A stretch of 46,528 nucleotides of DNA from Actinomycetes bacterium (GCA_036001885.1 DASYTV010000008.1:1-46528); one strand, 5' to 3'; positions 14,453-33,250 are shown, numbered from the stretch's first letter. Made by a program: numbers and translations. The notes: generated by a model not told the origin, from the sequence alone.

Positions 14453-14482
14453 GTGTGCCTCCGACCGCCGCCCATGCTCCCC

Positions 14483-16951: not shown

Positions 16952-17092
16952 CGACGGCGGACCGGCCGCGTCGAAGGTGTACCCACTCCACCCGTTCTAC
17001 ATGTGCTGGACGGAGGCGCCCACGGCCCCGCATCGCTGTAGGCCTCACCTTGATCGGCACGCCACCGAGACGGGTGTTCAGGGAACTTCCTC

Positions 17093-18100: not shown

Positions 18101-18114
18101 CTCCGGCGCCTATC

Positions 18115-18445
18115 GGCATCGCACCACGCGATGCAAGGCCAGTTGCGCTGTGGGGCTTGCCGGCTGTGCCGCATGGGCTTGTGGCCACCAGCGACCGCTC
18201 CTTTGATCGAACCGCTCTGCGGGACCACCCACGTTACGTCTCCAGCCAACCTCCGATGGGCTCATGACGCTAGGCGGTGTCCTGTAGATCATGGTAGGTC
18301 CCGGAGGTGGTCTTTCTGGTCTTCTTTGACCGGGATGACCGCCCTGATGCCGCGGGTGGTGCGGTAGGCGCAGTTGACCGCGGGTGAGTAAGCCTTCTCG
18401 CCCAGGGCCGCACCGGCCGGGTGCGGGGTCGGCACTCGTCCCGCC
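18115..18445 (-). mobile_element. IS5-family transposase remnant (C-terminal ~110 codons, frameshifted with stops)
   Basis: 'GEKAYSPAVNCAYRTTRGIRAVIPVKEDQK' resembles the '..DKAYSSxAxRxxLRRRGIRAVIP..ADQ' block of IS5/IS427-group DDE transposases. The downstream part is readable only across two other frames with in-frame stops. No N-terminal part and no inverted repeats were identified. Confidence 0.45.
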
Positions 18446-18463
18446 GTACGATGTGGATCCGGC

Positions 18464-18815
18464 TCATCCGGCCAGGGGCTGGTCCCCGCCGAACAGGACC
18501 TGCGTGAAGCCTTCCGCGGTTTCCTGGCGGGCCCAGTCCCGCTGCAGCTCACACCCGACCTGGGTCACGCTGGTCGGTTGGCCGCCGGCCTGGGCGATGC
18601 GGCCCAGCCCGGCCTGGTGCGCCTCGGGCGATGTCCCGCCGACGGCGTCGGTCACCGGGTAGGTCTCAAACCCCTCGCGCATCGCATCCAGCGAGGGGAA
18701 GGTCAGGCAGGCCTCGGTCCACAGGGCGGCCATGAGCAGCTTGCGGCGGGTCAGGCTCGAATGGCCGGCCACGTCGATCTCATATCCTCGGATGGCCTCG
18801 CTGGTGACAGGTCAG
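18464..18815 (-). pseudogene. isochorismatase-family (YcaC-like) hydrolase, 5'-truncated fragment
   Basis: '..EAIRGYEIDVAGHSSLTRRKLLMAALWTEACLTFPSLDAMREGFETYPVTDAVGGTSPEAHQAGLGRIAQAGGQPTSVTQVGCELQRDWAR' is the C-terminal ~115 aa of the family. An upstream in-frame stop removes the N-terminal ~90 aa, including the catalytic Asp/Lys region. Confidence 0.65.
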
Positions 18816-18832
18816 TAGCGGCGCATCAGCTC

Positions 18833-18873
18833 GTGATCGCCTCAGCGGGTTCAACCTGTCCGTGGTTCGGAGC
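18833..18873 (+). repeat. 41-nt repeat, copy 1 (GTGATCGCCTCAGCGGGTTCAACCTGTCCGTGGTTCGGAGC)
   Basis: Identical to 42224-42265 apart from 1 indel and 1 mismatch, and in the same orientation. It starts right where the isochorismatase fragment breaks off. Confidence 0.85.
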
Positions 18874-19245
18874 AATGCCGTTTCGCGATCAACAGCGCCG
18901 ACATCGTGGCGCAAAGCAGCAACAGCCAGATCAGCCACGCGGTGTGAGTGGCCAGTCCCGCGCGGGAAAGGTCGCCCACAAGCAAGCGGTTGGACGGTTG
19001 GTCAAACCCCCTACGCGGCCCGTCTCCTGCAGCGACTGGGTCCAGTACCGTGACACCGCGGGCAAGCGCATAGCGTTCGCGGCTGTTATCGCCGCCGCGA
19101 ACAGGCCGGCCAGACCGGCTACCCGCACGCGGCCGCGCAACAGCGCGACGCCGCCGATGAATGCCGGAGTGATCAGTGCAGCGGCCGCTCCTTACCGGCG
19201 GTGAGTGCGATGTCCATTCCTCGTCGCCACCCACCGGCTGGAAGG

Positions 19246-20214
19246 TCAGGACTGCATCGCACGCTCGACGTCCTCGGCGATCCGCTCGATCGACGGGATG
19301 ACCAGATCCTCCAGCGAGTCGGCGGAGGGAAGGGGGACGTGTGGGGTCGTGATGCGGATGACGGGCCCGTCGAGGTGCCAGAACCCCTCGTCGACGGCGA
19401 TGGCGGCGATCTCCGCTCCCCACCCGAGCAACCGGGGATTCTCCTCGACGGTGAAAAGCCGGCTCGTGCGACTCAGCGATTCGAGCACCGTCGTGACGTC
19501 GAGCGGAACCAGTGACCGGAGGTCTAGCACTTCGCAATCGATGCCGCGCGAGGCGAGCCGCTCCGCTGCTTTGAGAGCGCGGGGCACCATGAGCCCCAGG
19601 GCGACGATCGTGGCATCGGTGCCGGGCCGGCGGATTCGCGCCTTGCCGAGTTCGTCGACGATCGGTCCGTCCGGCACCTCGTCCTTGGTGGCGTAAAGGC
19701 CTTTGTGCTCGAAGAAGAGCACCGGATCGTCGCAGCGGATGGCGGCGGCCATCAAACCGACCACGTCGACCGGTGTCGAGGGTGTCACGACCTTGAGGCC
19801 AGGAACCGCCATCGCCCAGTTCTCGACGGACTGCGAGTGCTGGGCGCCGAATCGCAGGGTCCCGCCGTTGCCGCTCTTCACCACCAGCGGCAGGCTTACT
19901 TGGCCGTTCGTCATGTAGCGGGTTTTCGCCATCTGGTTCGCGACCAGATCCCAGCAGACGGCGAAGAAGTCGGAGAACATGATCTCGCCCACCGGCCGCA
20001 GCCCGGTCATCGCCGCTCCCATGACCGCCCCGAGGATCGCCTGTTCCGCGATGGGTGTATCGATGACCCGTTTCGGGCCGAACCGCTCGAGCAGGCCCAC
20101 GGTCGTCTTGAACACGCCACCCGCCCCCGCCACGTCTTCGCCGACCAGCACGACCCGCTCGTCGCGTTCCATTTCTTGCGCGATGCCATGCGCAACGGCG
20201 TCGCGGTAGGTCAT
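19246..20214 (-). CDS. TPP-dependent 2-oxoacid/acetoin dehydrogenase E1 component, beta subunit
   Basis: 'VIDTPIAEQAILGAVMGAAMTGLRPVGEIMFSDF' and the C-terminal transketolase-C-like domain. The start at 20214 overlaps the alpha-subunit stop (ATGA). Confidence 0.9.
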   Translation of the reverse strand: MTYRDAVAHGIAQEMERDERVVLVGEDVAGAGGVFKTTVGLLERFGPKRVIDTPIAEQAILGAVMGAAMTGLRPVGEIMFSDFFAVCWDLVANQMAKTRYMTNGQVSLPLVVKSGNGGTLRFGAQHSQSVENWAMAVPGLKVVTPSTPVDVVGLMAAAIRCDDPVLFFEHKGLYATKDEVPDGPIVDELGKARIRRPGTDATIVALGLMVPRALKAAERLASRGIDCEVLDLRSLVPLDVTTVLESLSRTSRLFTVEENPRLLGWGAEIAAIAVDEGFWHLDGPVIRITTPHVPLPSADSLEDLVIPSIERIAEDVERAMQS

Positions 20215-21275
20215 GACCGCCACGAGGAGCCTCCGTCCGCCCAAACCTCGGTGAACGCGGACGCGGGGTCGGGCAGCGCTCCGTTCTTCGCGGCGTCGGT
20301 CGCCGCGTCGACCGCCTGCGCCACCTCCGACTCGATCCGGTCCAGTTGCGCCGCCTCGACACCCAGCCGCTCCAGCCGTCCCCGGTAGACCTTGAGCGGG
20401 TCGTATGCCAGCCAGGCCTCCAGCTCGCCCGGGGGTTTGTACTTGCCGGGGTCGGCCCGGGAGTGGCCACCGTGGCGATAGGTGAGCGCCTCGATGAGCA
20501 CCGGCCCGGCGCCCGAGCGGGCGCGCGCCAGCGCCTCCTCGGCTGCGAGGTAGCAGGCGTCGGCGTCGTTGCCGTCGACCTCGACGGGGTCGAGTCCGTA
20601 CGCGGCGGCGCGGTCGGCGGCCGGGCGCCGTACCGCTGTGATGTCGGAAATGGCGGTGTACTCCATGTAGAGGTTGTTCTCGCAGACGAAAACCACCGGA
20701 AGCGCGAAGACGGCGGCGTAATTCAGCGCCTCGTGGAACGCCCCTATATTCGTGGTGCCGTCCCCGAAGAAGCACACCGCGACCTGCCCGCTGCCCCGGT
20801 ACTGCGCAGACCAGGCAGCCCCGTTCGCGATGGTCAGGTGCGCGCCGATGATCGCGTAGGAGCCCATGACCCCGTGCTCCACGCTCGTCAGATGCATCGA
20901 TCCGCCCTTGCCGCCCAGCAGTCCGTTGCTGCGCCCGAGCAATTCCGCGAGTACCGCCTCCATCGGCACGCCGCGCGCCAAGGTGTGCGCGTGGCCTCGA
21001 TAGGTCGCAAACGTGTAGTCGTCGGACCGCATCGCCGTGGCGAATCCGGCGGCGATCGCCTCCATGCCGAGCGACAAATGGGAGGTGCCCTTAACCAGCT
21101 GCTGCATGAAAAGGTCGTAGGCGCGCTTCTCGAACTGCCGCAACTCATGGAGCACGCGGTACATCCGCAGCCGCACGTCGAGCGGAACGTCCGACTGGTC
21201 GTGCGCCGTGGGGTTGTTCGGTGGCATGACGACGTCGTGTTCGCCGTACGGATGCGTCTCCAACGGCAGCGTCAT
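20211..21275 (-). CDS. TPP-dependent 2-oxoacid/acetoin dehydrogenase E1 component, alpha subunit
   Basis: The TPP-binding motif is 'GDGTTNIGAFHEALNYAAVFALPVVFVCENN'. 'YRGH' is also present. The RBS GGAAGGGA precedes the ATG at 21275; the maximal ORF reaches 21332. Confidence 0.9.
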   Translation of the reverse strand: MTLPLETHPYGEHDVVMPPNNPTAHDQSDVPLDVRLRMYRVLHELRQFEKRAYDLFMQQLVKGTSHLSLGMEAIAAGFATAMRSDDYTFATYRGHAHTLARGVPMEAVLAELLGRSNGLLGGKGGSMHLTSVEHGVMGSYAIIGAHLTIANGAAWSAQYRGSGQVAVCFFGDGTTNIGAFHEALNYAAVFALPVVFVCENNLYMEYTAISDITAVRRPAADRAAAYGLDPVEVDGNDADACYLAAEEALARARSGAGPVLIEALTYRHGGHSRADPGKYKPPGELEAWLAYDPLKVYRGRLERLGVEAAQLDRIESEVAQAVDAATDAAKNGALPDPASAFTEVWADGGSSWRS

Positions 21276-21303
21276 GCCGATCCCTTCCTGGTCATTTCCG
21301 GTG

Positions 21304-22665
21304 TTATTTCCCGTCCTCCGAGGGTGGCTCAACCGACGTCCGCCCGCGGGTGTTGATGTGCGACTGGCTATCCCGCTCGAGGGTGAGCGGGCCGGCGGTC
21401 GTGTAGTAGCGGCGCCCGGCCACGAGCAGGTCCTCGGCAGGGAACTTCGTGATCACCTCCGCGCCGTCCGCGGTCACGATCACCTCCTCCTCGATGCGCG
21501 CCGCGCCCCAGCCGTCGGAGGCCGGCCAGTAGGTCTCCAGGGCGAAGACCATGCCCTCCTCGAGCACCTCCGGCGCATCGAAGGAGGTCATCCGGCTGAA
21601 GATCGGCCGCTCCCAGATCGACAGGCCGACGCCGTGCCCGTACTGCAGGGCGAACGCGGCCTCCTCATCGGCGAAGCCGAACTCCTCGGCGCGCGGCCAC
21701 AGCTCGACGATGTCCGCAGTGGTGACGCCGGGCTTCACCATCTCGATGGCCTTGTCCATGTACTCGCGGCAGATCCGATAGGCATCGCGCTGGGCGCGAG
21801 AGGCGCTGCCGACGGCGAAGGTCCGGTAGTAGCACGTCCTGTAGCCCATGAAGCTGTGCAGGATGTCGAAGAACGCCGGGTCCCCTGGGCGGATCAGCCG
21901 GTCGGAGAACACGTGCGGATGGGGTGAGCACCGCTCGCCGGAAATGGCATTGACGCCCTCGACGTGCTCCGATCCCAGGTCGTAGAGCACCTTGCTGACC
22001 AGTCCGACGCACTCGTTCTCGCGGACGCCCGGCCTGAGGAACTCGTACAGCTCTTCGTAGGCTGCGTCGACCATCGAAGCCGCCTGCGTGAGCAACCCGA
22101 TCTCGTCGGCGGTCTTGATGCGGCGAGCCCCCAGGAACACCTGCTGCCCGTCGGCCACGGTGATGCCGAGCTCCTGGAGGGCGAACATCACCGGCGGCTC
22201 GATGATGTCCACCCCCACCGGTTCGTTCTGCAGGCCGTGCTCGGCCAGCACGGCATGTACCTTCGCGGCGACGTCCTGCGCGCGCCCGGCCGAGGGCGAG
22301 ATCGCGCCCCGCAGCGTCGAGATCCCTGCGCGCGCACCGTAGTGCTGGCCGCGCTCGCCCGGGTGAGCCTCGTCGAGCCACGGCGTCTGCAACTGGTGGT
22401 GCCGGGCAGCGGAGCCGAAGTCCCACAGCACCGGGTCGCCGCCGCGCGGCAGCACAGCGAAGCGGATCATTTTGTCCATCGCCCAGGTGCCGATGTGCGT
22501 CGCCGTCATGTAGCGAATGTTGTGGAAGTCGAAGGTCAGCAGCGCGCCAAGATCGGAGCGCTCGAGTTCGGCCTTCAGCCGATCGAGGCGTTCTCGGCGC
22601 AGTCGCGGCATGCTGAGCCGGTCCTCCCAGTCGACGCCGGTGACTCCATATGTGGGCGAACCCAT
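21304..22665 (-). CDS. M24-family (creatinase/prolidase fold) metalloenzyme-like protein
   Basis: The N-terminal creatinase_N-like domain is followed by a pita-bread domain: 'RPGDPAFFDILHSFMGYRTCYYRTF', 'YGHGVGLSIWERP', 'ALETYW', 'RIEEEVIVT'. Four of the five canonical metal ligands are recognisable. The second Asp position reads Cys. Confidence 0.8.
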   Translation of the reverse strand: MGSPTYGVTGVDWEDRLSMPRLRRERLDRLKAELERSDLGALLTFDFHNIRYMTATHIGTWAMDKMIRFAVLPRGGDPVLWDFGSAARHHQLQTPWLDEAHPGERGQHYGARAGISTLRGAISPSAGRAQDVAAKVHAVLAEHGLQNEPVGVDIIEPPVMFALQELGITVADGQQVFLGARRIKTADEIGLLTQAASMVDAAYEELYEFLRPGVRENECVGLVSKVLYDLGSEHVEGVNAISGERCSPHPHVFSDRLIRPGDPAFFDILHSFMGYRTCYYRTFAVGSASRAQRDAYRICREYMDKAIEMVKPGVTTADIVELWPRAEEFGFADEEAAFALQYGHGVGLSIWERPIFSRMTSFDAPEVLEEGMVFALETYWPASDGWGAARIEEEVIVTADGAEVITKFPAEDLLVAGRRYYTTAGPLTLERDSQSHINTRGRTSVEPPSEDGK

Positions 22666-22683
22666 CGGGACCTCCGTGAAAGG

Positions 22684-22703
22684 CGCTGCTCGGCAGAGCA
22701 GCG
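22684..22703 (-). terminator. 8-bp GC hairpin between the VOC and M24 genes (possible attenuator or weak terminator)
   Basis: CGCTGCTC-GGCA-GAGCAGCG forms a perfect stem. On the minus strand it is followed by CCUUUCAC and then the M24 RBS (GGAGG). There is no clear U-tract. Confidence 0.25.
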
Positions 22704-22749
22704 GTGGACGTTCGCCGGGCCCGCTGCCGGGACCGGCCCGGCTCCGGTT

Positions 22750-23301
22750 TCAGGCGAGCCTGGCCTCGATCTCTTCCAGTCGAGCGCGGGTGCGGAGGTA
22801 CTCCTCCGCTGCCGCCTCCCGCTTTTCCTTTTCGTAGTAGGCAATCTCCACCAGCTCCAGCGCAAGGCCGTCCGGGTCGCTGAAATAGCACCAACGCCAG
22901 CCGGCAAGCGGCCCGTCGTCGATGACGTTGACATCCGAATAGAACTGCACGCCCTTGCTTTCCAGCTCCGCCTTCCTTGCCGTAATGTCGTCGACCAGCA
23001 GGCAGACGTGAGCGGCGCCCAGGTAGTTGTTCGGGACCGGCTCGGTGCTCGATTCTGGCCGGTTGGCGTACTCGAGCAGCTCCAGGGTGGAATGCTCGCC
23101 CACCCAGAGGCAGACCTGCCGCAGCTCGGCGCCCGGCACGCCGACGCCCTTTTCGAGCTGGGGCCCGGAGAACCACGGCGTCGGCTCGTTGGCGAACGGC
23201 AGCCCGAGGATGTCGTGGTAGAAGTAGATCGATCGGTCGAGGTCGCGGATCACCAGCCCGGCATGGTGGATCGCTTTCGGCGGCGGCTGCATTGATTGCA
23301 T
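22750..23301 (-). CDS. VOC-family (glyoxalase/bleomycin-resistance/dioxygenase) protein
   Basis: 'IHHAGLVIRDLDRSIYFYHDILGL' and a second 'GAAHVCLLVDDITA..LESKGV' module. It carries a charged coiled C-terminal tail. Confidence 0.8.
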   Translation of the reverse strand: MQSMQPPPKAIHHAGLVIRDLDRSIYFYHDILGLPFANEPTPWFSGPQLEKGVGVPGAELRQVCLWVGEHSTLELLEYANRPESSTEPVPNNYLGAAHVCLLVDDITARKAELESKGVQFYSDVNVIDDGPLAGWRWCYFSDPDGLALELVEIAYYEKEKREAAAEEYLRTRARLEEIEARLA

Positions 23302-23314
23302 CCTTCCTGAGGCG

Positions 23315-24382
23315 CTACGCAGCGGTGGGGCTGATCAGGACCTTGAGCTGATCGCCCTTGGGGTCGACGAGGACCTCGAAGCCCTTCTCCACGACGTCCT
23401 GCAGCGGCACCCGCGCGGTCACGGCCTTGGTGACCGGATAGCGGCCGGTGGCGACCAGTCGGATGACCCGCGGCCAGTCGGTGAGCCCGTAGCACCAGCT
23501 GCCGTAGAGCGTGGCGTCCTTCTCGGCGAGCGTCATGGCGTCGAGCTGCGCCGGCTTGGTGTGCAGCCCGGTCTGCACGATGGCTCCGCCGCGGCGGACG
23601 TGCGTCACGCAGGCGCCGAGCCCGGGGCTGGTCCCCGAGCACTCGACCGCGAGGTCAACCCCGAACCCGTCGGTCAGCTCTGCCAACAGGTCGCCGAATC
23701 CCTTCCCCGTCGGATCGAGCACCGGGCCGACATCCAGCTCACGGGCCAGCGCGGCCCGGTTCGGGTTGGGCTCTGCGATCACGACGGCGCCCGCGCCGAT
23801 CGCGCTTGCGTAGAGAGCGGAAAGCGCGCCGATCGGACCGGCTCCGGTCACCAGCACGATGTCGCCGCCGGAGATGCCCGCTCGCTCCACGCCGTAGGCC
23901 GCCACCGCTGCCGGCTCGATGAGGGCGCCCTCGAGGTCGGACACCTCATCCGGCAGGCGATTCACCTGGTACTCCTTCAGCACGGCGAATCTCGCGAGCC
24001 CGCCGGTCGATGCCGACAGCCCCGTGCAGGCCATGGTCACGCAGAGGTGGCCCTGCCCACGCCGGCAGTAGCGGCAGCGGCCGCAGATGATGAGCGGCAT
24101 GACGGAGACCCGGTCTCCGATGCCGGCATCTCTGACCTCCGCTCCGGTCTCGACCACAGTGGCCGAGAATTCGTGGCCCAACGTCTGGGGCAGGCTGGCG
24201 CCGGTGAGGGGGTGCGGCTTGACGGCGGTGACGATCGGCCCGACGGAGTACTCATGCAGGTCGGTGCCGCAGATGCCGCACCAGTGCACCTCAACCAGCA
24301 AGTCGTCGGGTGCCGACAGCTGGGGGGTGGGCACCTCCTCGACCCGGATATCCTTCTGGCCGTAGAACCGTGCAGCGAGCAC
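23315..24382 (-). CDS. zinc-dependent MDR alcohol dehydrogenase (2,3-butanediol / polyol dehydrogenase-like)
   Basis: 'MLAARFYGQKDIRVEEV..VEVHWCGICGTDLHEY', 'GHEFSATVVETG', structural-Zn 'CGRCRYCRRGQGHLC', and Rossmann 'VLVTGAGPIGAL'. Confidence 0.85.
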   Translation of the reverse strand: MLAARFYGQKDIRVEEVPTPQLSAPDDLLVEVHWCGICGTDLHEYSVGPIVTAVKPHPLTGASLPQTLGHEFSATVVETGAEVRDAGIGDRVSVMPLIICGRCRYCRRGQGHLCVTMACTGLSASTGGLARFAVLKEYQVNRLPDEVSDLEGALIEPAAVAAYGVERAGISGGDIVLVTGAGPIGALSALYASAIGAGAVVIAEPNPNRAALARELDVGPVLDPTGKGFGDLLAELTDGFGVDLAVECSGTSPGLGACVTHVRRGGAIVQTGLHTKPAQLDAMTLAEKDATLYGSWCYGLTDWPRVIRLVATGRYPVTKAVTARVPLQDVVEKGFEVLVDPKGDQLKVLISPTAA

Positions 24383-24391
24383 GTCCTGCTC

Positions 24392-26992
24392 CTATCTGCC
24401 TTGGGTGAATGAGACGCGGGTGCCGCGCACCTGGCTGTAGAGGACGGCAGCCACGACGATGAGGCCGCCCTGGAAGATGTACTGCCAGGTCTGCGTGAGA
24501 CCCAGGAACGTCGTGGCGTTGAGCGCCTGGACGATGAGGCACGCGCCCAGCAGCGTGCCGATGAACGTCCCGCGGCCGCCGAGCAGGCTAGTGCCGCCGA
24601 GGACGACCGCGGTGATGCTGCTCAGCGTGTAGGTGACGCCCTGGGCCGGGTCGCCGATCCCGAGCTGGGCGAGCAGCACGATCGCGCCGAGGAAGGTGAA
24701 CAGCGAGCTCAACACATAGGCGAGCACCACGGTGCGGTTGATCCGCACGCCGACCGCCCGTGCCGATTCCTCATTCGACCCCGCGGCGCGAAGCCGGTGA
24801 CCCCACTCGGACCGGCGCAGCAGCCATTCCATCGCCAGTGTGATGACCACCAGCACGATGAAGGCCCACGGGATCGGTCCGATCTTGCGGGTGATGAAAT
24901 CCGTGACGCTCGCCCGGATGATCCCCTCGGGCGCGTCGCGCAGCAGGAAGCTCAGGCCCTGCAGGCCGATGTAGGTGACCAGCGTCGCGGCCACCGGCGT
25001 GAACCTGCCGAACCGGATCAGGGATCCGTTGAGCGTGCCGACCGCCGTGGCCGCGACCAGCATCAGGACGAGACCGAGGATCACCACCCCTGCGGATTTG
25101 TCGTCGTTGACGAAGAACGACGCCAGCACCACAAGGAAGCCGGCGAGTGGTCCCACGGAAAGGTCGATGCCCCCGACGAGCAATGCGACCGTCTGTCCCA
25201 GGGAAATGAATCCCAACGCCGCGACGAGCAGCATCATCGAGGTGATGTTGAAGGAATTCAGGTACCTGTCATTGTGCGCGTAGACATACGCGCCCAGCCC
25301 GACGATCATTGCGGCGAGAACGGCGACCGGCGCGTAGTCGCCGGCCAAGAATCGGCGCAGTCCGGGACGCATCCGCGTCGCGGTGCGTTCTGCTGCCTGC
25401 CTGGTATGCCGGGTGGCGGCCACCGCGGCGCGGATCATCCGCTCCTCGGTGACATCGTCCCCCGTGAGCTCCTCCACGACGTGTCCCCGCGACATCACGA
25501 CGACCCGGTCGCACAGGCCCTCGAGCTCCTTCGCGTCCGACGAGGCGACGACCACCGGCACGCCGCTGTCCGCCACCTCCCGCAGAATCCGGTATATCTC
25601 GGCGCGTGCTCCGACGTCCACACCTTGCGTCGGCTCGTCCGCCACCAGGATCGCCGGTTTGGACAGCAGCGCGCGCGTCACCACGACCTTCTGCTGGTTA
25701 CCGCCGGAAAGCGCGGTGACGACCGCCTCCATTGTCGGCGCCTTCACACCCAGGCTGCTGAGCTCGCGGCCCACTGCCGAAAGCTCCCGTGGCCTGCTGA
25801 GCAGCGGGCCGCGCGCGAAGTCCCCGAGTGCCATCACCGCGGAGTTCTCCCGGACCGACAGCGACATCATCAGCCCCTCGCGGTACCGGTCCGCCGGCAG
25901 GTAGGCCGAGTCACGCTGCAGCTGCCGTGAGCTCCTCGCCTTCCCCGTGACGAGAACCTCACCGTTGAACGGCTTCAGGCCCGCGAGCGCCCGTAGGAGG
26001 TCGCTCTGCCCGTTGCCGACGACGCCGGAGACCCCGAGGATCTCGCCCTTCCGAGCCGTGAGTGTGACATCGGAAAATCCGTCGCCGCCCAGCTCGCGGA
26101 CCGTGAGCGCGTCGGGATCGCCCTCTGTCGGCTCGTGTTTGGGAGGGAACGTCGACTCCAGCTGCCGGCCGACAATGAGCGCCAGCAGCTCGTCGTCGGT
26201 CACCTCGTCGACGCTCATGGTGCCGCGCAGCCGACCGTCGCGGAGCACCGTGACGCGGTCGGCCAGGACGCGGACCTCGGCAAGGCGGTGAGTGATGTAG
26301 ACGACGGCGGTGCCGGCGCGAGTGGCCGCTCGCACGCGATCGAAAAGCAGGTCGACGGACTCGGGGCCGAACGGCGCCGTCGGCTCGTCGAGGATGAGCA
26401 GCTTGGGTTCGAGCGCCAGCGCCTTGGCCAGCTCGAGCAGATGTGTCTGGGCGACGCTGAGATCGCTGACACGGTCTTCAAGGTGGCGCCGGAATCCCAC
26501 GTCGTCGAGCAGCGCCCGCATCGACGATTTCTCGTCGCCGGCGAACCTCAGCCGCTCCCTTGGAACGGCTACCCGAAGGTTCTCCGCGACCGTCATGTCC
26601 GGGAGTACAGCCGGGTGCTGGTGCACGATCGCGATGCCGAGTTCGGTGGCTCGCGCGGGGGTGAGACCGTCGATCTCCTGGCCTTCGAACTGCATGGAGC
26701 CGCCGTCGGGGCGCGTCGTGCCCGAGGCGACTGCCATGAGCGTGGACTTCCCGGCGCCGTTCTCACCCAACAGCGCATGCACCTCGCCGGGCACGACCTC
26801 GAGCGACACATCTGAGAGCGCCCTGACGCCGCCGTAACTCTTCGAGATACCGGAAAGCACCATGGTCGGCTGCTGGAGGGCAACCTTCGTCGCCTCTGTC
26901 ACTTCGTCGTCCTTCATCGGGCCCAGGGTCTCTCCGCTCGCCGGGTTGGAGGGCGGCCGGCCCGCGACGTCAGCTCCGGCCGCCCTCCACAT
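24392..26992 (-). CDS. CUT2-type sugar ABC transporter, fused tandem-ATPase + permease polypeptide
   Basis: A single uninterrupted 866-codon ORF. It has two NBDs (Walker A 'GENGAGKST', second-NBD P-loop 'GVVGNGQSD', signature 'LSGGNQQK'). A C-terminal RbsC/AraH-like permease of about 330 aa follows ('GQTVALLVGGIDLSVGPLAGFLVV'). The start could be 26992 or the ATG at 26917. Confidence 0.85.
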   Translation of the reverse strand: MWRAAGADVAGRPPSNPASGETLGPMKDDEVTEATKVALQQPTMVLSGISKSYGGVRALSDVSLEVVPGEVHALLGENGAGKSTLMAVASGTTRPDGGSMQFEGQEIDGLTPARATELGIAIVHQHPAVLPDMTVAENLRVAVPRERLRFAGDEKSSMRALLDDVGFRRHLEDRVSDLSVAQTHLLELAKALALEPKLLILDEPTAPFGPESVDLLFDRVRAATRAGTAVVYITHRLAEVRVLADRVTVLRDGRLRGTMSVDEVTDDELLALIVGRQLESTFPPKHEPTEGDPDALTVRELGGDGFSDVTLTARKGEILGVSGVVGNGQSDLLRALAGLKPFNGEVLVTGKARSSRQLQRDSAYLPADRYREGLMMSLSVRENSAVMALGDFARGPLLSRPRELSAVGRELSSLGVKAPTMEAVVTALSGGNQQKVVVTRALLSKPAILVADEPTQGVDVGARAEIYRILREVADSGVPVVVASSDAKELEGLCDRVVVMSRGHVVEELTGDDVTEERMIRAAVAATRHTRQAAERTATRMRPGLRRFLAGDYAPVAVLAAMIVGLGAYVYAHNDRYLNSFNITSMMLLVAALGFISLGQTVALLVGGIDLSVGPLAGFLVVLASFFVNDDKSAGVVILGLVLMLVAATAVGTLNGSLIRFGRFTPVAATLVTYIGLQGLSFLLRDAPEGIIRASVTDFITRKIGPIPWAFIVLVVITLAMEWLLRRSEWGHRLRAAGSNEESARAVGVRINRTVVLAYVLSSLFTFLGAIVLLAQLGIGDPAQGVTYTLSSITAVVLGGTSLLGGRGTFIGTLLGACLIVQALNATTFLGLTQTWQYIFQGGLIVVAAVLYSQVRGTRVSFTQGR

Positions 26993-26995
26993 CGA

Positions 26996-28114
26996 CTACT
27001 TCTTGATGACCTTTGCCTGCTGCTCGGGCGGCATCTGGGCCGAGAGGTAGATGTCCCCAGGAAGATCCTTGCGGCATTCGACCTTGTTGGGCTGCCCGCT
27101 GACCGAGTTCTCGAACGGCGCGTGCTTGTGGACCGTATCGGTCGGGACCTGCCCGCCGGTGGCCTCCGCGATTGCGTAGTCCATGGCAGTGCGGACGTGG
27201 TCGTTGCCGGTCGCGATCGTGTACAGCTTGAAGTTCGGGTTCTTCGCCTGGTTGTCCTGCCAGAAGCAGCCCAGGACATTGCCGTCAGACGTGGCGATCG
27301 GCGGGATGGACCGCCCGGCTTTGGTGAAGGCGGACAGCGCGCCGACCAGAGAGGGGCCGAAGTCGGAGGCGATCACGTCGATCTTGGAGTTCTTGGCGAT
27401 GGCCGCGGTAAGCACCTGCTGTGTCAGCGCCGGATCCCAATTGGTCACCTCGAACGGCTTCTCACCGATGAAGGTGTACTTGCCCGTCGGGTCGAGGACC
27501 TCGTGCAAGCCCTGCGCCTCGCCCTCACCCTGGCTGTTGCCTTTGGGACCACTCAGGAAGAGAACATTGCCGCCGTTGGGCACCACTTCCTTGATCCAGT
27601 TCGCCCAGTTGTGGCCGTCGTTGACCGAGTCGAGCGCTATGTATTTCGTGTAGTCCTTGCCGTCCTCACCACCGGGAAATACGCGGTAGGGAACCGTGAC
27701 GACGCCGGCCTGGAATGCCGAGCGCAGGGCGGGCAGCATTGCCTGCCCGGCATCAGGGAATACCACGAGCGCATCGACGCCCTTGGCGGCCATGCCCTGG
27801 ATGTCGGAGATCGCCTTCTGCGTATTGCCCTGGCCATCGGCGTACAGGAACTCCTTCACGCTCGGGCACTTCGCGGCCTCTTCCTTGCCGGATGCAGTCG
27901 TGATCAAGCGCCAGCTGTTGCCCCCGAACCCATCGGTCATGCCGAGAGTGATCTCCTTGGGTCCGCACCAGGCGGGCACGTTGGCGGCGCCGGAGGCGCT
28001 GCCGGACGGTTGGCTCCCCGAAGCTTCGTCTGAGCCGCCTCCACAGGCGGCCAGCACGAAGGTCGCCGCGGCGACGCCCGCAACCAAGCGTGCGAGCGAA
28101 AGCGGTCGGATCAT
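26996..28114 (-). CDS. sugar ABC transporter substrate-binding lipoprotein (periplasmic-binding-protein type I)
   Basis: Signal peptide with lipobox 'FVLAACGG'. 'QGNTQKAISDIQGMAAKGVDALVVFP' is typical of RbsB-like SBPs. Confidence 0.85.
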   Translation of the reverse strand: MIRPLSLARLVAGVAAATFVLAACGGGSDEASGSQPSGSASGAANVPAWCGPKEITLGMTDGFGGNSWRLITTASGKEEAAKCPSVKEFLYADGQGNTQKAISDIQGMAAKGVDALVVFPDAGQAMLPALRSAFQAGVVTVPYRVFPGGEDGKDYTKYIALDSVNDGHNWANWIKEVVPNGGNVLFLSGPKGNSQGEGEAQGLHEVLDPTGKYTFIGEKPFEVTNWDPALTQQVLTAAIAKNSKIDVIASDFGPSLVGALSAFTKAGRSIPPIATSDGNVLGCFWQDNQAKNPNFKLYTIATGNDHVRTAMDYAIAEATGGQVPTDTVHKHAPFENSVSGQPNKVECRKDLPGDIYLSAQMPPEQQAKVIKK

Positions 28115-28192
28115 TGAGGTTTCCCTTCTCGCGTCGTCGGGTTGTTGTCGAGGACTTGCACTCGGTCGTGCCGCCCGGTCAGGTGCTTGCGG

Positions 28193-29218
28193 CTAGGTGC
28201 TGGAACCGGGCGACGGCGCTGGCGCGGCATTGACCAGCCGCTGTTTGATAGCCCGCCAGTTGACCGAGTACAGGGCGACACCGACGGCGAGCGCCCCGGC
28301 CTCGACGAGACTGCGGACGGCGGTATCCACACCGAGAGCCAGTACGAACTGCTGCAACTGGCTGAGGAACAGAGCTGCGACAGCGGTCGCAACCAGAAAG
28401 CCGCGGCCCCCGAGCAGCGACGTGCCGCCCAGGACGACCGCTGCCACAGACGGCAGGAGGTACGCATCGCCCTGGAAAGCAGTGGGCTGGGCGAGAATGC
28501 CGGCGAGGAGGACGCCGCCCAGCCAGTAGAACACCATCGCCCATACGTAGGCGGCCGCGCGATGGCGCACCACGTGCAACCCGGCCGTCCAAGCGGCCGG
28601 CGGACTCGCGCCGACGGCCTCGAACCGGCGCCCGACCGCGGTGAGCTTCACCGCGACCGTTACGATCACGGTGGCGGCGACCGCGAAGTAAACCGAGTTC
28701 GGAATCCCGAGAGTCGTCCCGCCGGCAATGTCGGCCAGCAGATTGGTCGTGCGCCTGGGGGAGCCGCCAGAAATGCCGAGAACACCGGCGTAGAGCAGGG
28801 CGCTCATGCCCAGCGTTGCGACGATCGGATTCAGACCCAGCCGGCCGATGAGAATGCCGTTCGCCAGGCCGGCGACAATCGCCACGACGAGGGCCAGGAG
28901 CACCGCGCCGAGCAGCTTGCTGTCGTCCCCGTTCGGTTCGTGGCTGACGATCACCACCATGAGCGAGACCGCACCCGGCACTGAGAGGTCGATTCCGCCC
29001 TGTTGCACCACGAGTGTCTGGCCGAGCGAGATGATCGCGAGTACCGCCGCGAACGGAAGCATTCCGAGGAGCGCGCCCTTGCTGACGCTGGTCGACGCGA
29101 ACAGCCAGCTCGCCAGGAACAGCGCCACAGTCGCGACGGTGATGGTGAGCAGCCCACGGGAAACAGTGATGCGGGGGCCCGGCCGGACCACCGTCCGCTC
29201 GGGTGCAGTCACGGCCAT
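28193..29218 (-). CDS. sugar ABC transporter permease (RbsC/AraH-like)
   Basis: 'LGQTLVVQQGGIDLSVPGAVSLMVV'; multi-TM. The ATG at 29218 is the sensible start; the maximal ORF reaches 29299. Confidence 0.85.
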   Translation of the reverse strand: MAVTAPERTVVRPGPRITVSRGLLTITVATVALFLASWLFASTSVSKGALLGMLPFAAVLAIISLGQTLVVQQGGIDLSVPGAVSLMVVIVSHEPNGDDSKLLGAVLLALVVAIVAGLANGILIGRLGLNPIVATLGMSALLYAGVLGISGGSPRRTTNLLADIAGGTTLGIPNSVYFAVAATVIVTVAVKLTAVGRRFEAVGASPPAAWTAGLHVVRHRAAAYVWAMVFYWLGGVLLAGILAQPTAFQGDAYLLPSVAAVVLGGTSLLGGRGFLVATAVAALFLSQLQQFVLALGVDTAVRSLVEAGALAVGVALYSVNWRAIKQRLVNAAPAPSPGSST

Positions 29219-29319
29219 CACGCCTCCACAGCACGAATCGGGCGTCCAATCCGGGTCGGTCCGCACGTCGCGTTCCTGCCCAGCCGCGTTGCGCGGCACT
29301 GTACAAGCGACCTCCAGGT

Positions 29320-29337
29320 GTTCACAAGAGGTTCACA
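29320..29337. promoter_or_regulatory. candidate operator upstream of the ABC operon
   Basis: GTTCACA (29320-29326) and GTTCACA (29331-29337) are spaced 11 nt start to start. They lie ~100 nt upstream of the permease start, in a 185-nt intergenic gap. Confidence 0.25.
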
Positions 29338-29403
29338 TCACATTCGGGCAACATCGCGGGATCAGGCTCTGCGGCGCGGCCGGCTTGGCCCGTGAGCGAA
29401 CAC

Positions 29404-30453
29404 TCAGCCGCGGCGGGGGTCGACCAGGATCTTCCCGGCCGCCAGCCCGGCGACCAGCGGCTCGAAGCCCTGCGTGACGACGTCCTCCAGCGGCACGATC
29501 CGGTCGAGCAGCCCGGAAAGCGAGCCGCCGGCCAGTCGCCGCAATGCCTCCGGCATGTCCTGTGCGCACACGTGCGCGACCGTCGTTATCAGGTCGACCT
29601 CGCGCAGCACGACCTCCGCGAGATTCAGCGGCTGAGGCGTCTGGTTGAGCCCGACCTGCACGACCGTGCCGCCTGGTGCCGCACCACGGAAGGCGCGTGC
29701 TGCCGCGCCCGTCACTCCGGACGTCTCGAACACCACGTCCGCGCCACCCGGCACGACGTCTCGCAGCGCGTCCGGACCGGCGTCGCGCGGCAGCAGGATG
29801 CTGCTAGTGGCGCCGAGGCTTTCGGCGACGACCAGCCGGTCCTGGTCGATGTCGGCGGCGATGACCGGGCCGTCGTGACTACCCAGGCCGGAAAGGATGA
29901 AAGCGCCGATCGCCCCCGCACCGGCGACGACCACGGTGTCTCCCGGATGAATCCCGGCTCGCCGGACGGCGTGCAGGCCCACTGCGAGCGGCTGCGCGAG
30001 GGCGGCGTCCGAATCGGCACAGTCGTCGGGAATGGCCACGCACGTGCTAGCCGGCGCGGCGACGAATTCCGCCAGCCCGCCGTGCGTATTCAGCCCCAGG
30101 GTGTAATAGGCGGCGCAGAGGTTGGTGCGTCCCTGGCGGCAGCGCCGGCAAGAACCACAGGAAACCCCTGCTCCGCTTGCTATTCGCTGCCCGACCAGAT
30201 GGCGTGCATCGCTGCCGGCGTCGACCACGGCGCCGATGAATTCATGGCCGAGCACGGTAGGCCCGACGTGGCCGCTGCCGGGGTGTCGGCGATGGAGCGG
30301 AACCATCATCGGGCCCTTGGCGTACTCGGTGGCATCCGTCCCGCACAAGCCGTTGTAGGTCACGCGGACGACGACATCGGCCGGGCCGGGGATGGGTTCG
30401 GCGCGTTCCTCGACTCTCAGGTCGCCCTGGCCGTAGAGGACACCAGCTCGCAC
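29404..30453 (-). CDS. zinc-dependent MDR alcohol/polyol dehydrogenase
   Basis: 'GLCGTDATEY', 'GHEFIGAVVDAG', structural-Zn 'CGSCRRCRQGRTNLC', and Rossmann 'VVVAGAGAIGAF'. Confidence 0.85.
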   Translation of the reverse strand: MRAGVLYGQGDLRVEERAEPIPGPADVVVRVTYNGLCGTDATEYAKGPMMVPLHRRHPGSGHVGPTVLGHEFIGAVVDAGSDARHLVGQRIASGAGVSCGSCRRCRQGRTNLCAAYYTLGLNTHGGLAEFVAAPASTCVAIPDDCADSDAALAQPLAVGLHAVRRAGIHPGDTVVVAGAGAIGAFILSGLGSHDGPVIAADIDQDRLVVAESLGATSSILLPRDAGPDALRDVVPGGADVVFETSGVTGAAARAFRGAAPGGTVVQVGLNQTPQPLNLAEVVLREVDLITTVAHVCAQDMPEALRRLAGGSLSGLLDRIVPLEDVVTQGFEPLVAGLAAGKILVDPRRG

Positions 30454-30469
30454 AGCAGCTCCTGCGGGG

Positions 30470-31450: not shown

Positions 31451-31488
31451 GGGCCGACCTCGCATAGCTGTTGTGCAGTGAGGAGCAT

Positions 31489-33086: not shown

Positions 33087-33250
33087 GAACGTGCGCCTCC
33101 TGGACACCCATGGCTGATCTGCGGTACCGGACACGACGCAAGATCAGGGCCAAACGTTAACCAATACTTGACGCCCTGTCCACGGTAGACCAGGATGCGG
33201 GCGAACCGCACGCGGCGCGTGAGGCCCGAGCCGCCCGTCGTAAAGGAGCC

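What the first reader, a model, noticed from the sequence alone, without database searches (positions are those of the whole stretch)
19246..29337. Nine-gene minus-strand operon mixing a sugar ABC importer with orphan TPP-E1 alpha/beta, an M24-fold enzyme, a VOC protein and a butanediol-dehydrogenase-like ADH
The gene order is permease, SBP, fused ATPase-permease, Zn-ADH, VOC, M24-like, E1 alpha, E1 beta. Gaps are 3-80 nt and one pair overlaps at ATGA, so co-transcription is likely. The E1 alpha/beta pair has an intact GDG..NN TPP motif, but no E2 or E3 component lies anywhere in the window. That is the pattern of C-C-cleaving acetoin-dehydrogenase-like enzymes acting outside a classical complex. 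I do not recognise the combination of a CUT2 sugar/polyol importer, three MDR dehydrogenases nearby, a creatinase-fold protein and a VOC protein as a described pathway. It may be a route for a polyol or deoxy-ketose that ends in thiamine-dependent cleavage.
Basis: inference. Interest (0 to 1): 0.6.

Follow-up and report, generated by a model that had tools for sequence, protein, structure and literature searches.

The report
Truncated sugar-alcohol breakdown operon with M24–E1 core
This is a shortened copy of a gene cluster shared by many soil and freshwater actinobacteria that probably imports a sugar-like alcohol and breaks it down without phosphorylation; its conserved, uncharacterised core is an unusual M24-fold metalloenzyme paired with a thiamine-dependent E1 enzyme.

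Summary
The genes are real and were called correctly, but 19246-29337 holds eight genes, not nine. With two more MDR dehydrogenases and an XRE-cupin regulator upstream, the cluster has eleven co-directional genes (19246-32250).

The same gene order recurs in at least eight other actinobacterial genomes, so it is not a chance juxtaposition. The conserved core is a DddP-like M24 protein with an invariant Asp-Cys-His-Glu-Glu site. Relatives were confirmed at 586 loci in a one-genome-per-species collection, and the 80 kept are 73-85% identical. E1 alpha/beta lies directly downstream in 44 of 74 loci. VOC is confined to the importer-type cluster.

The "orphan E1" reading holds only partly. In all seven comparable clusters E1 beta is followed by an E2 gene, often without a lipoyl domain or with an altered catalytic motif. 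A Phaeobacter plasmid version carries a lipoyl protein, an aldehyde dehydrogenase, E2 and E3. In this window that position holds gene debris. Streptomyces-type clusters, however, have no E2 nearby.

Best reading: non-phosphorylative breakdown of a polyol or cyclitol that ends in lipoyl-dependent, acetoin-dehydrogenase-like C-C cleavage, with lipoyl/E2/E3 supplied in trans. The substrate is unknown and I found no paper on it. Other first-stage readers of this scan noted the same M24-E1 module in other genomes.

The parts
31489..32250 (-). XRE-family HTH + cupin regulator (PuuR-like architecture)
   Evidence: Pfam HTH_3 and Cupin_2. An orthologue sits next to M24 in 49 of 84 loci.
30470..31450 (-). 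MDR Zn-dehydrogenase A (326 aa)
   Evidence: Pfam ADH_N and ADH_zinc_N. ATG start at 31450. 72-78% identical orthologues at the same position in L011, L013, L014, L015, L022 and L024.
29404..30453 (-). MDR Zn-dehydrogenase B (349 aa)
   Evidence: Pfam ADH_N and ADH_zinc_N. 62-67% identical orthologues in the same order.
28193..29299 (-). CUT2-type ABC permease
   Evidence: Pfam BPD_transp_2. NCBIfam best hits are AraH, LsrD and RbsC, all below cut-off.
26996..28114 (-). Periplasmic sugar-type binding protein
   Evidence: Pfam Peripla_BP_4. Only weak PDB relatives, E about 1e-13: allose, inositol, xylose, ribose and polyol binders.
24392..26992 (-). Fused tandem ABC ATPase + permease (866 aa)
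   Evidence: Pfam ABC_tran x2 and BPD_transp_2. RbsA/XylG/AraG-like, about 385-395 bits, below cut-offs. The same fusion (833-866 aa) occurs in L011, L013 and L128.
23315..24382 (-). MDR Zn-dehydrogenase C, polyol-dehydrogenase type (355 aa)
   Evidence: Pfam. Best solved relative is (R,R)-butanediol dehydrogenase 6ie0 (210 bits), then ketose reductase and sorbitol dehydrogenase.
22750..23301 (-). VOC (glyoxalase-fold) protein, 183 aa
   Evidence: Pfam Glyoxalase. Directly upstream of M24 only in the importer-type clusters.
21304..22665 (-). DddP-like M24 (pita-bread) enzyme with an Asp267-Cys278-His344-Glu377-Glu392 site; conserved core of the system
   Evidence: Pfam Peptidase_M24. DddP model scores 120 bits against a cut-off of 600. 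Alignment to prolidases shows the second Asp ligand replaced by Cys. All five residues are invariant in 81 orthologues. AlphaFold model pLDDT 88.6, best fold match DddP with TM 0.75-0.77.
20211..21275 (-). ThDP-dependent E1 alpha (354 aa from ATG 21275; a TTG at 21332 is also open)
   Evidence: Pfam E1_dh. GDG...NN and YRHGGHSRADP motifs present. PDH_E1_alph_y scores 308 bits against a cut-off of 394.
19246..20214 (-). E1 beta (322 aa), start overlaps the E1 alpha stop (ATGA)
   Evidence: Pfam Transket_pyr and Transketolase_C. NCBIfam PRK09212 E1 beta subfamily scores 341 bits against a cut-off of 321. GAQHSQ motif present.
18101..19245 (.). Degenerate stretch where orthologous clusters carry E2 (and an aldehyde dehydrogenase)
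   Evidence: Only a C-terminal isochorismatase fragment at 18464-18772, matching profile positions 112-174 of 175. No tblastn trace of E2, ALDH or HIBDH.
34337..35554 (-). EboE-family TIM-barrel protein; a recurrent partner of M24 in importer-type clusters, displaced by about 12 kb here
   Evidence: NCBIfam TIM_EboE scores 400 bits against a cut-off of 250. 67% identical to the gene that follows M24 in Acidothermaceae L013. Also next to M24 or E1 in L016, L022, L023 and L024.
32304..33134 (-). SDR dehydrogenase (acetoin-reductase / iditol-dehydrogenase-like); possible member
   Evidence: Pfam adh_short. TIGR02415 scores 248 bits against a cut-off of 304. Orthologues lie beside M24 in L026, L039 and L076.

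Best explanation
The stretch is a copy, truncated at its 3' end, of a conserved actinobacterial catabolic operon controlled by an XRE-cupin regulator.

Proposed route:
- The CUT2 ABC system imports a sugar-like polyol or cyclitol.
- Three MDR polyol dehydrogenases, and probably the nearby SDR, oxidise secondary alcohols. This gives an alpha-hydroxy-ketone or dione without any phosphorylation.
- The VOC protein and the DddP-like M24 metalloenzyme (Asp-Cys-His-Glu-Glu site) rework that intermediate by isomerisation, hydrolysis or elimination.
- The ThDP-dependent E1 alpha/beta then cleaves the C-C bond next to the carbonyl, as acetoin dehydrogenase does. The acyl half goes to a lipoyl group and on to CoA. 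The other half leaves as an aldehyde.
- Complete clusters oxidise that aldehyde with a succinate-semialdehyde-dehydrogenase-like enzyme or reduce it with a 3-hydroxyisobutyrate-dehydrogenase-like enzyme.

This copy has lost the dedicated E2 and lacks the HIBDH and ALDH genes. Lipoyl domains, acyltransferase and E3 would therefore have to come from the housekeeping complexes on contigs C57 and C490, or the last step is impaired.

Shown: gene content, conserved order, the M24-E1 linkage, E2 genes in orthologous clusters, and motif conservation. Inferred: the substrate class, the order of reactions, the M24 chemistry, and lipoyl supply in trans.
For: - Domains and tight spacing are confirmed.
- The same gene order occurs in L011, L013, L014, L015, L022, L024 and L128/L129.
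- M24 has relatives at 586 confirmed loci in a one-genome-per-species collection, and E1 alpha/beta lies immediately downstream in 44 of 74 loci.
- E1 pairs of unrelated lineages sit beside M24 orthologues. These are 33-40% identical fused E1 with a full E2 in L017, L020, L064 and L084, and a 37% identical E1 in Phaeobacter. This points to a functional coupling, not inherited synteny.
- An E2 follows E1 beta in 7 of 7 comparable clusters.
- The Phaeobacter plasmid cluster reads M24-E1a-E1b-lipoyl protein-ALDH-E2-lpdA, next to a CUT2 importer, SDRs and an HIBDH-like gene.
- An aldehyde dehydrogenase inside or just after the complex genes fits acyloin cleavage, which releases an aldehyde. 2-Oxoacid decarboxylation does not.
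- The E1 alpha YRxxGHSxxDP and E1 beta GAQHSQ motifs are invariant in 47 and 45 orthologues.
- No kinase or aldolase occurs in any importer-type cluster.
- The dehydrogenases are polyol/butanediol-dehydrogenase-like.
- Supplying lipoyl groups in trans has an actinobacterial precedent in OdhA/AceF (PMC10415282).
- The genome has Lpd plus a two-lipoyl-domain E2 on C57 and an E1-E2 set on C490.
Against: - No substrate can be named. The binding protein has only weak solved relatives.
- No enzyme of the cluster reaches an NCBIfam equivalog cut-off.
- Three importer-type clusters (L013, L016, L022) have EboE in place of E1 alpha/beta, so the E1 step is not obligatory.
- The M24-E1 pair also sits in Streptomyces-type clusters with a deaminase-like amidohydrolase, a bicupin, an SDR and an HIBDH, and without E2. 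This hints at a different, nitrogen-containing substrate.
- Dedicated E2s are lipoyl-less, and the DHR motif reads DPR in L011 and L015 and THDLR in L128. E2-independent chemistry is therefore not excluded.
- This copy lacks E2, ALDH and HIBDH, and may not run the pathway to completion.
Confidence: 0.5

Rival explanations
1. One reading: E1 alpha/beta works without any E2/E3, as a stand-alone ThDP lyase, transketolase-like enzyme or carboligase. It would cleave a ketose or deoxy-ketose and release both fragments without lipoyl or CoA chemistry.
For: - The window has no E2 or E3.
- 38 of the 74 scorable loci have M24-E1ab with none of the importer-type marker genes; these are mostly Streptomyces-type, and no E2 was found within about 10 kb in them.
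- The dedicated E2s of importer-type clusters mostly lack a lipoyl domain. The catalytic DHR motif is DPR in L011 and L015 and shifted in L128.
Against: - An E2-like gene follows E1 beta in 7 of 7 comparable clusters, three of them with a lipoyl domain plus an E3-binding domain.
- The Phaeobacter cluster has a complete lipoyl protein/E2/E3 set.
- The His-bearing loops of lipoyl-dependent E1s are invariant in all orthologues, including those without E2.
- Actinobacteria are known to share lipoyl domains between complexes.
Confidence: 0.2
2. The E1 is the first component of a 2-oxoacid dehydrogenase. The upstream enzymes, including M24, would produce a 2-oxo acid that is oxidatively decarboxylated to an acyl-CoA, as in PDH or BCKDH.
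For: - E1 beta passes the NCBIfam PDH E1 beta subfamily cut-off (341 against 321 bits).
- The closest solved E1 alpha is human PDH E1 alpha (174 bits).
- In L017-type loci a full E1-E2 set sits next to an HIBDH-like gene and M24, which resembles valine catabolism.
- M24 enzymes usually act on carboxylate-bearing substrates (established knowledge: creatinase, DddP, ectoine hydrolase, prolidase).
Against: - E1 alpha is below both PDH E1 alpha cut-offs (308 against 394 bits).
- No dehydratase, transaminase or oxidase that would make a 2-oxo acid is in the importer-type cluster.
- An aldehyde dehydrogenase embedded among the complex genes has no role after a 2-oxoacid dehydrogenase.
Confidence: 0.2
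3. The cluster is specifically an acetoin / 2,3-butanediol utilisation system.
For: - Dehydrogenase C is closest to (R,R)-butanediol dehydrogenase (210 bits).
- The nearby SDR is closest to the acetoin reductase model TIGR02415 (248 against 304 bits).
- The E1 pair is of the AcoAB/PDH-y type.
Against: - A sugar-type CUT2 importer, M24, VOC, EboE and HIBDH-like genes are not part of any described aco operon (established knowledge of acoABCL and acoXABC).
- No model reaches its cut-off.
- The ALDH of complete clusters is succinate-semialdehyde-dehydrogenase-like, not acetaldehyde-dehydrogenase-like.
Confidence: 0.08
4. The genes are a chance juxtaposition of unrelated genes, with no shared pathway.
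For: VOC and E1 alpha/beta are each missing from some related clusters.
Against: The order is identical over 10-13 genes in at least eight genomes from different families. The M24-E1 adjacency recurs with different E1 lineages.
Confidence: 0.02

Closest known systems
Acetoin dehydrogenase enzyme system (AcoA/AcoB E1, AcoC E2, AcoL E3)
   Same: Heterotetramer-type ThDP E1 alpha/beta with GDG...NN. Butanediol/polyol-type dehydrogenases are encoded nearby. An aldehyde-oxidising enzyme is associated in complete clusters. The proposed chemistry (acyloin to acyl-lipoyl plus aldehyde) is the Aco reaction.
   Different: This window has no lipoyl E2 or E3. Orthologous E2s are mostly lipoyl-less. The cluster is always led by an M24 enzyme and is linked to a sugar-type ABC importer, VOC, EboE and HIBDH-like genes, none of which belong to aco operons. 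Identity to annotated AcoA is only about 39%, the same as to annotated PdhA.
DddP, the M24-family DMSP lyase (PDB 4s00, 4b28)
   Same: Best structural match over both domains (TM 0.75-0.77) and best NCBIfam hit. Both are non-peptidase members of the pita-bread fold.
   Different: Only 25% identical, and 120 bits against a cut-off of 600. The second metal-binding Asp is an invariant Cys. The genomic context is sugar/dehydrogenase/E1 in soil and freshwater actinobacteria, not DMSP metabolism.
Actinobacterial hybrid PDH/ODH complex (OdhA/Kgd using lipoyl domains of AceF/DlaT)
   Same: An E2 catalytic domain without its own lipoyl domain that depends on lipoyl groups supplied in trans (PMC10415282). 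This is the arrangement seen in L128, L014 and L011.
   Different: There the E2 domain is fused to a homodimer-type E1o of central metabolism. Here it is a separate small gene after a heterotetramer-type E1 in a peripheral catabolic operon, and it is missing altogether from this window.
Inositol catabolism (Bacillus iol pathway with the ThDP hydrolase IolD; Thermotoga IolG/IolM/IolN/IolO)
   Same: The logic is similar: a CUT2 importer, dehydrogenases that make keto-cyclitols, a TIM-barrel enzyme, a cupin/VOC-type isomerase, a ThDP-dependent C-C cleavage and a semialdehyde dehydrogenase. IolM is the best NCBIfam hit of all three MDR dehydrogenases (158-223 bits).
   Different: All hits are far below the IolM cut-off of 450. 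The solved structures closest to dehydrogenase C, the only one of the three compared with solved structures, are butanediol, ketose and sorbitol dehydrogenases. There are no IolG, IolD, IolC or IolJ homologues and no kinase or aldolase. This is an analogy only.
Ectoine hydrolase EutD/DoeA with EutE and Ssd
   Same: An M24 non-peptidase hydrolase working in a catabolic cluster alongside a succinate-semialdehyde-dehydrogenase-like enzyme (recalled from the literature). It is a structural relative (6twk).
   Different: Only about 20% identical, and the DoeA models score 57-61 bits against cut-offs of 575-613. There is no deacetylase or transaminase, and an E1 alpha/beta is present instead.

Membership tests
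Acetoin dehydrogenase / 2-oxoacid dehydrogenase complex | ThDP-binding E1 alpha with the GDG...NN motif, plus E1 beta with pyrimidine-binding and C-terminal domains | tested here: met
   Pfam E1_dh, Transket_pyr and Transketolase_C. Motifs read directly from the translation.
Acetoin dehydrogenase / 2-oxoacid dehydrogenase complex | Dedicated lipoyl-bearing E2 acyltransferase encoded with the E1 | tested here: not met
   No PF00198 or PF00364 hit on the window's contig and no tblastn trace. An E2 is present after E1 beta in 7 of 7 comparable clusters elsewhere.
Acetoin dehydrogenase / 2-oxoacid dehydrogenase complex | Dihydrolipoyl dehydrogenase (E3) available | tested here: inconclusive
   None in the window: 43091-44242 is CoA-disulfide-reductase-like, and the Lpd model scores 110 bits against 409. 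Strong Pyr_redox_dim hits, typical of lipoamide dehydrogenase, lie elsewhere in the genome on C57 and C109. Whether such an enzyme serves this E1 is untested.
Pyruvate dehydrogenase E1 (NCBIfam equivalogs) | Score above the curated cut-off of the PDH E1 alpha models | tested here: not met
   TIGR03182 scores 308 bits against 394, and TIGR03181 scores 234 against 411. E1 beta does pass the subfamily model PRK09212 (341 against 321).
Xaa-Pro peptidase / aminopeptidase P (M24B) | Five carboxylate/His metal ligands Asp, Asp, His, Glu, Glu | tested here: not met
   The second Asp is Cys278 in the alignment to prolidases 1pv9 and 3q6d. It is invariant in 81 orthologues. All peptidase equivalog models score far below cut-off.
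DddP DMSP lyase | Score above the NCBIfam DddP equivalog cut-off | tested here: not met
   120 bits against 600. The fold is the closest match, but identity is 25%. The DddP-specific catalytic residues were not compared.
CUT2 carbohydrate ABC importer | Peripla_BP_4 binding protein, tandem-ATPase subunit and BPD_transp_2 permeases | tested here: met
   Pfam. RbsA/XylG/AraG-like and AraH/RbsC-like hits are below the equivalog cut-offs. Substrate specificity cannot be tested with these tools.
EboE (ebo cluster TIM-barrel protein) | Score above the NCBIfam TIM_EboE cut-off; normally accompanied by eboA-F | tested here: met
   400 bits against 250 for 34337-35554. The accompanying ebo genes were not searched for. 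None appeared among the genes annotated at 29-37 kb.
IolM scyllo-inosose 3-dehydrogenase | Score above the NF041097 cut-off (450 bits) | tested here: not met
   223, 158 and 190 bits for the three MDR dehydrogenases.

The most novel reading that the evidence does not exclude
The DddP-like M24 enzyme with the Asp-Cys-His-Glu-Glu site and a ThDP-dependent E1 form a previously undescribed two-enzyme C-C cleavage module. It would be spread over hundreds of species of Actinomycetota, with relatives on roseobacter plasmids. It would plug into at least two upstream routes: a sugar-alcohol or cyclitol route with a CUT2 importer, and a route for a nitrogen-containing substrate with a deaminase-like amidohydrolase and a bicupin. 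The M24 protein would carry out non-peptidase chemistry on a keto-sugar-derived intermediate and hand its product directly to the E1.
Probability: 0.4. Interest if true: 0.7.

Novelty: new variant of a known kind. Interest (0 to 1): 0.55.

Why it matters
If the reading holds, a very widespread and very strongly conserved enzyme pair marks a catabolic pathway that has not been described. The M24 protein is 73-85% identical across classes of Actinomycetota, and half of its positions are near-invariant. The pathway's substrate is probably a common soil or freshwater carbohydrate-like compound.

It would add a new non-peptidase activity to the M24 fold. It would also add a non-phosphorylative, thiamine/lipoyl-dependent way of cutting sugar-derived carbon chains. 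Finally, it would show peripheral E1 modules borrowing, or losing, E2/E3 partners in actinobacteria.

Cultured strains carry complete clusters, so the question can be tested directly. Examples are Nocardioides sp. Soil805, Phycicoccus sp. 3266, Acidothermaceae B102, many Streptomyces, and Phaeobacter inhibens plasmids.

Tried and rejected
- Literature: five full-text searches aimed at the module or its parts found nothing on it. They covered M24 + E1 + catabolic pathway, IolM, NCBI product names, Phaeobacter plasmid locus tags, and DddP homologues in Actinobacteria. A sixth search was for the OdhA/AceF precedent and did find it. This is not proof that no paper exists, because subscription journals are not covered.
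- IolM-like annotation of the three dehydrogenases: rejected as a specific lead. Scores are far below cut-off, and the closest solved structures are butanediol, ketose and sorbitol dehydrogenases.
- Binding-protein specificity from solved structures: the hits are too weak to use (E about 1e-13).
- Remnants of E2, ALDH or HIBDH downstream of E1 beta: none found, even at E = 10.
- A dedicated E2 elsewhere in this genome: only the generic E2s turned up. An ALDH 55% identical to the cluster-type one lies on C47, with no related neighbours.
- Window flavoprotein 43091-44242 as a hidden E3: rejected.
- Promoter and terminator scans were at background level.
- Distant M24 relatives (35-45% identical) gave no named pathway. 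Their neighbours included GFO/Idh/MocA and Iso_dh genes in one case, a ThDP/ALS-like enzyme on Haloferax pHV4 in another, and uninformative short contigs.
- ESM Atlas returned only generic "M24 metallopeptidase" clusters.
- Same-genus and same-family relatives carry only the paralogous (63-64% identical) E1 beta, so they did not help reconstruct the lost 3' end.

Full report
**What is in the sequence.** The window is the whole of contig C8 of a 3.9-Mb, 490-contig, roughly 89%-complete high-G+C genome. Its closest protein relatives are actinobacterial: Motilibacteraceae, Nocardioides, Jatrophihabitans and Acidothermaceae.

- permease, 28193-29299
- Peripla_BP_4 binding protein, 26996-28114
- 866-aa ATPase-ATPase-permease fusion, 24392-26992
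- MDR dehydrogenase, 23315-24382
- VOC protein, 22750-23301
- M24 protein, 21304-22665
- E1 alpha, 20211-21275
- E1 beta, 19246-20214

The gaps are 78, 3, 9, 13, 84 and 28 nt, and E1 alpha/E1 beta overlap at ATGA. The title says nine genes, but the span holds eight. Two more MDR dehydrogenases (30470-31450 and 29404-30453) and an XRE-cupin regulator (31489-32250) are co-directional just upstream. The unit therefore has eleven genes.

No E2 or E3 is in the window. The genome's E2 catalytic domains lie on C490, C57 and C312 and its lipoyl domains on C490, C57, C109 and C377. The only flavoprotein-disulfide-reductase-like gene in the window (43091-44242) is CoA-disulfide-reductase-like, not a lipoamide dehydrogenase.

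**Is it a conserved unit?** Yes. The M24 protein has very close relatives: more than 80% identity in over a hundred 90%-identity clusters. A scan of one genome per species confirmed a relative at 586 loci, and the 80 loci kept are 73-85% identical.

I mapped the window's proteins, plus extra proteins from two first loci, onto those loci. I also clustered all neighbouring ORFs without prior labels. Two recurrent architectures emerged.
- **Type A, the window's kind.** The order is regulator, dehydrogenase A, dehydrogenase B, (HIBDH-like), permease, binding protein, ATPase-permease, dehydrogenase C, VOC, M24, and then either E1 alpha/beta or an EboE-family TIM-barrel gene, or both. It occurs in Nocardioides sp. 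Soil805 (L011), Acidothermaceae B102 (L013), Phycicoccus (L024), Nanopelagicales (L022) and several metagenome-assembled genomes (L014, L015, L128/L129), at 60-85% identity per protein.
- **Type B.** The order is regulator, M24, E1 alpha/beta, a PRK08204-type deaminase-like amidohydrolase, a bicupin, an SDR and an HIBDH-like gene. It occurs in dozens of Streptomyces and other genera.

This genome also has a type B copy on contig C340. There the M24 is 76% identical, E1 alpha-beta is fused, and a gamma-glutamyltransferase is added.

Across 74 loci with enough downstream sequence, E1 alpha/beta follows M24 directly in 44. VOC is next to M24 only in type A.

E1 pairs of other lineages also sit beside M24 orthologues. 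One group is a 33-40% identical, fused E1 with a complete lipoyl E2 (L017, L020, L064, L084). Another is a 37% identical pair on Phaeobacter plasmids. This repeated pairing is the strongest sign that M24 and a ThDP-dependent E1 work together.

**The M24 protein.** Alignment to prolidases shows the ligand set Asp267, Cys278, His344, Glu377, Glu392, so the second Asp of M24 peptidases is a Cys. All five residues are invariant in 81 orthologues, and 225 of 453 columns are at least 97% conserved. The Cys persists in at least 90% of relatives down to 33-40% identity.

The DddP model is the best NCBIfam hit but scores only 120 bits against a cut-off of 600, and every peptidase model is far below cut-off. 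An AlphaFold model (pLDDT 88.6) matches the DMSP lyase DddP best (TM 0.75-0.77, 25% identity), ahead of prolidases, ectoine hydrolase and creatinase. It is a non-peptidase pita-bread enzyme of unknown reaction.

In every other type A cluster that carries E1 alpha/beta, an E2-like gene follows E1 beta:
- L023: lipoyl + E3-binding + catalytic domains (383 aa)
- L024: lipoyl + E3-binding domains (409 aa)
- L025: lipoyl + E3-binding + weak catalytic domain, cut by the contig end
- L128/L129: E3-binding + catalytic domains (289 aa)
- L014: catalytic domain only, with DHR intact
- L011 and L015: catalytic domain only, with DHR replaced by DPR; L128 reads THDLR

In Nocardioides, a succinate-semialdehyde-dehydrogenase-like ALDH follows the E2.

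On Phaeobacter inhibens plasmid pP92_e the M24 orthologue (55% identical) leads this series: E1 alpha, E1 beta, a protein with two lipoyl domains, an SSADH-like ALDH, an E2 catalytic subunit and lpdA. Opposite lie a CUT2 importer, two SDRs, an HIBDH-like gene and a ThuA gene.

In the window, the corresponding 1.1 kb after E1 beta holds no intact gene. It contains only a C-terminal isochorismatase fragment and no trace of E2, ALDH or HIBDH. The HIBDH-like gene that sits between dehydrogenase B and the permease in several orthologous clusters is also missing. The window's copy is therefore truncated.

Against this, type B clusters show no E2 within about 10 kb, and the dedicated type A E2s look degenerate. 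A cis-encoded E2 is clearly dispensable in actinobacteria.

Two observations favour lipoyl supply in trans over lipoyl-independent chemistry. First, the E1 alpha YRxxGHSxxDP loop and the E1 beta GAQHSQ motif are invariant in all 47 and 45 orthologues. From general knowledge of PDH-type E1s, these carry the histidines implicated in reductive acylation of lipoyl-lysine. Second, actinobacterial OdhA has an E2 domain without a lipoyl domain and depends on lipoyl groups of E2p (PMC10415282). This genome has an Lpd gene next to a two-lipoyl-domain E2 on C57, and an E1-E2 operon on C490.

**Most likely mechanism.** Type A clusters have an importer of the carbohydrate (CUT2) type. They carry three to four NAD(P)-dependent polyol, butanediol or acetoin-type dehydrogenases and three metal-dependent enzymes suited to enediol or carbonyl chemistry (VOC, M24, EboE). 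They have no kinase and no aldolase.

I therefore propose the following. A sugar-like polyol or cyclitol is imported and oxidised to an alpha-hydroxy-ketone or dione. VOC and M24 rework it. The E1 then cleaves it next to the carbonyl, as acetoin dehydrogenase does, giving an acyl-lipoyl (then acyl-CoA) and an aldehyde.

The ALDH placed among or right after the complex genes in Phaeobacter and Nocardioides fits an aldehyde product. This favours acyloin cleavage over 2-oxoacid decarboxylation.

HIBDH-like and SSADH-like enzymes suggest that the released fragment is a short semialdehyde-type acid. Three type A clusters carry EboE, ALDH, HIBDH and ApbA-like genes instead of E1. The E1 branch therefore appears to be one of two ways of disposing of the M24 product. 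In this window the EboE homologue lies about 12 kb away, at 34337-35554.

The substrate, the reaction order and the M24 chemistry are all inferred. Nothing here identifies the compound. Confidence in the overall picture is about 0.5.

**Rivals.**
- A genuine 2-oxoacid dehydrogenase (about 0.2).
- A specific acetoin/butanediol system (below 0.1).
- Chance juxtaposition, which the synteny excludes.

**Known or new?** No equivalog model names any enzyme of the cluster, and five literature searches aimed at the module found no paper on it. Other first-stage readers of this scan noted the same M24-E1 arrangement in other genomes, without resolving it.

The components belong to known families and the overall logic is familiar: importer, dehydrogenases, an E1 complex. 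The obligatory, highly conserved M24 partner with a Cys ligand, and the non-phosphorylative design, are not part of any described pathway that I could find. I class it as a new variant of a known kind, of moderate to good interest. The "orphan E1" angle that motivated the finding is weakened.

Noticed in passing
G000 contig C340 (L117:1767-11731): A second, paralogous M24-E1 module in the same genome. It comprises an XRE-cupin regulator, M24 (76% identical), a fused E1 alpha-beta (690 aa), a PRK08204-type deaminase-like amidohydrolase, a bicupin, an SDR, an HIBDH-like gene and a gamma-glutamyltransferase, next to an AI-2E family transporter. This is the Streptomyces-type architecture.
   Followed up: partly
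window 34337-35554 (-): An EboE-family TIM-barrel gene (400 bits against a cut-off of 250) with no other ebo genes seen nearby. Its orthologues sit directly after M24 or E1 in several importer-type clusters, which suggests a role for EboE-like proteins outside the ebo operon.
   Followed up: partly
L011:13369-14046, L015:13507-13991, L128:13397-14266, L014:13519-14199: The small E2 genes that follow E1 beta in orthologous clusters lack lipoyl domains and vary at the catalytic DHR motif: DPR in two, THDLR in one, DHR in one. They are either decaying or kept as a scaffold.
   Followed up: partly
L124 (Phaeobacter inhibens plasmid pP92_e, NZ_CP010615.1, 38-56 kb): A plasmid-borne cluster with an M24 orthologue (55% identical), E1 alpha/beta, a separate protein with two lipoyl domains, an SSADH-like ALDH, an E2 catalytic subunit and lpdA. 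It also has a CUT2 importer, SDRs, an HIBDH-like gene and ThuA. The same cluster is on 60-82 kb plasmids of several Phaeobacter, Tritonibacter and Marinovum strains.
   Followed up: partly
L125 (Haloferax volcanii pHV4, 531-538 kb): A distant M24 relative (34% identical) lies near an ALS-type ThDP-binding protein, an NAD(P) oxidoreductase, a cupin, EthD proteins and a hydantoinase/oxoprolinase pair. This is another M24-ThDP enzyme neighbourhood of unknown function.
   Followed up: no
window 12962-18100 (-): A GH65 phosphorylase (14483-16951), a DUF2252 protein (12962-14482) and a PfkB kinase (17093-18100) lie downstream of the debris. They are not found next to the cluster in any related locus, so they are probably unrelated neighbours.
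   Followed up: partly
window 43091-44242 (-): A truncated-looking (383 aa) CoA-disulfide-reductase / NADH-oxidase-like flavoprotein. The match starts at about model position 100, so the N-terminal part may be missing or the start may be miscalled.
   Followed up: no
L127 (farmland metagenome contig, M24 87% identical): Here the closest M24 relative found on a contig long enough to show its neighbours stands without the importer or E1 alpha/beta. It lies next to a glycerate kinase, an MDR dehydrogenase and an AceE/transketolase-type homodimeric E1-like gene.
   Followed up: no
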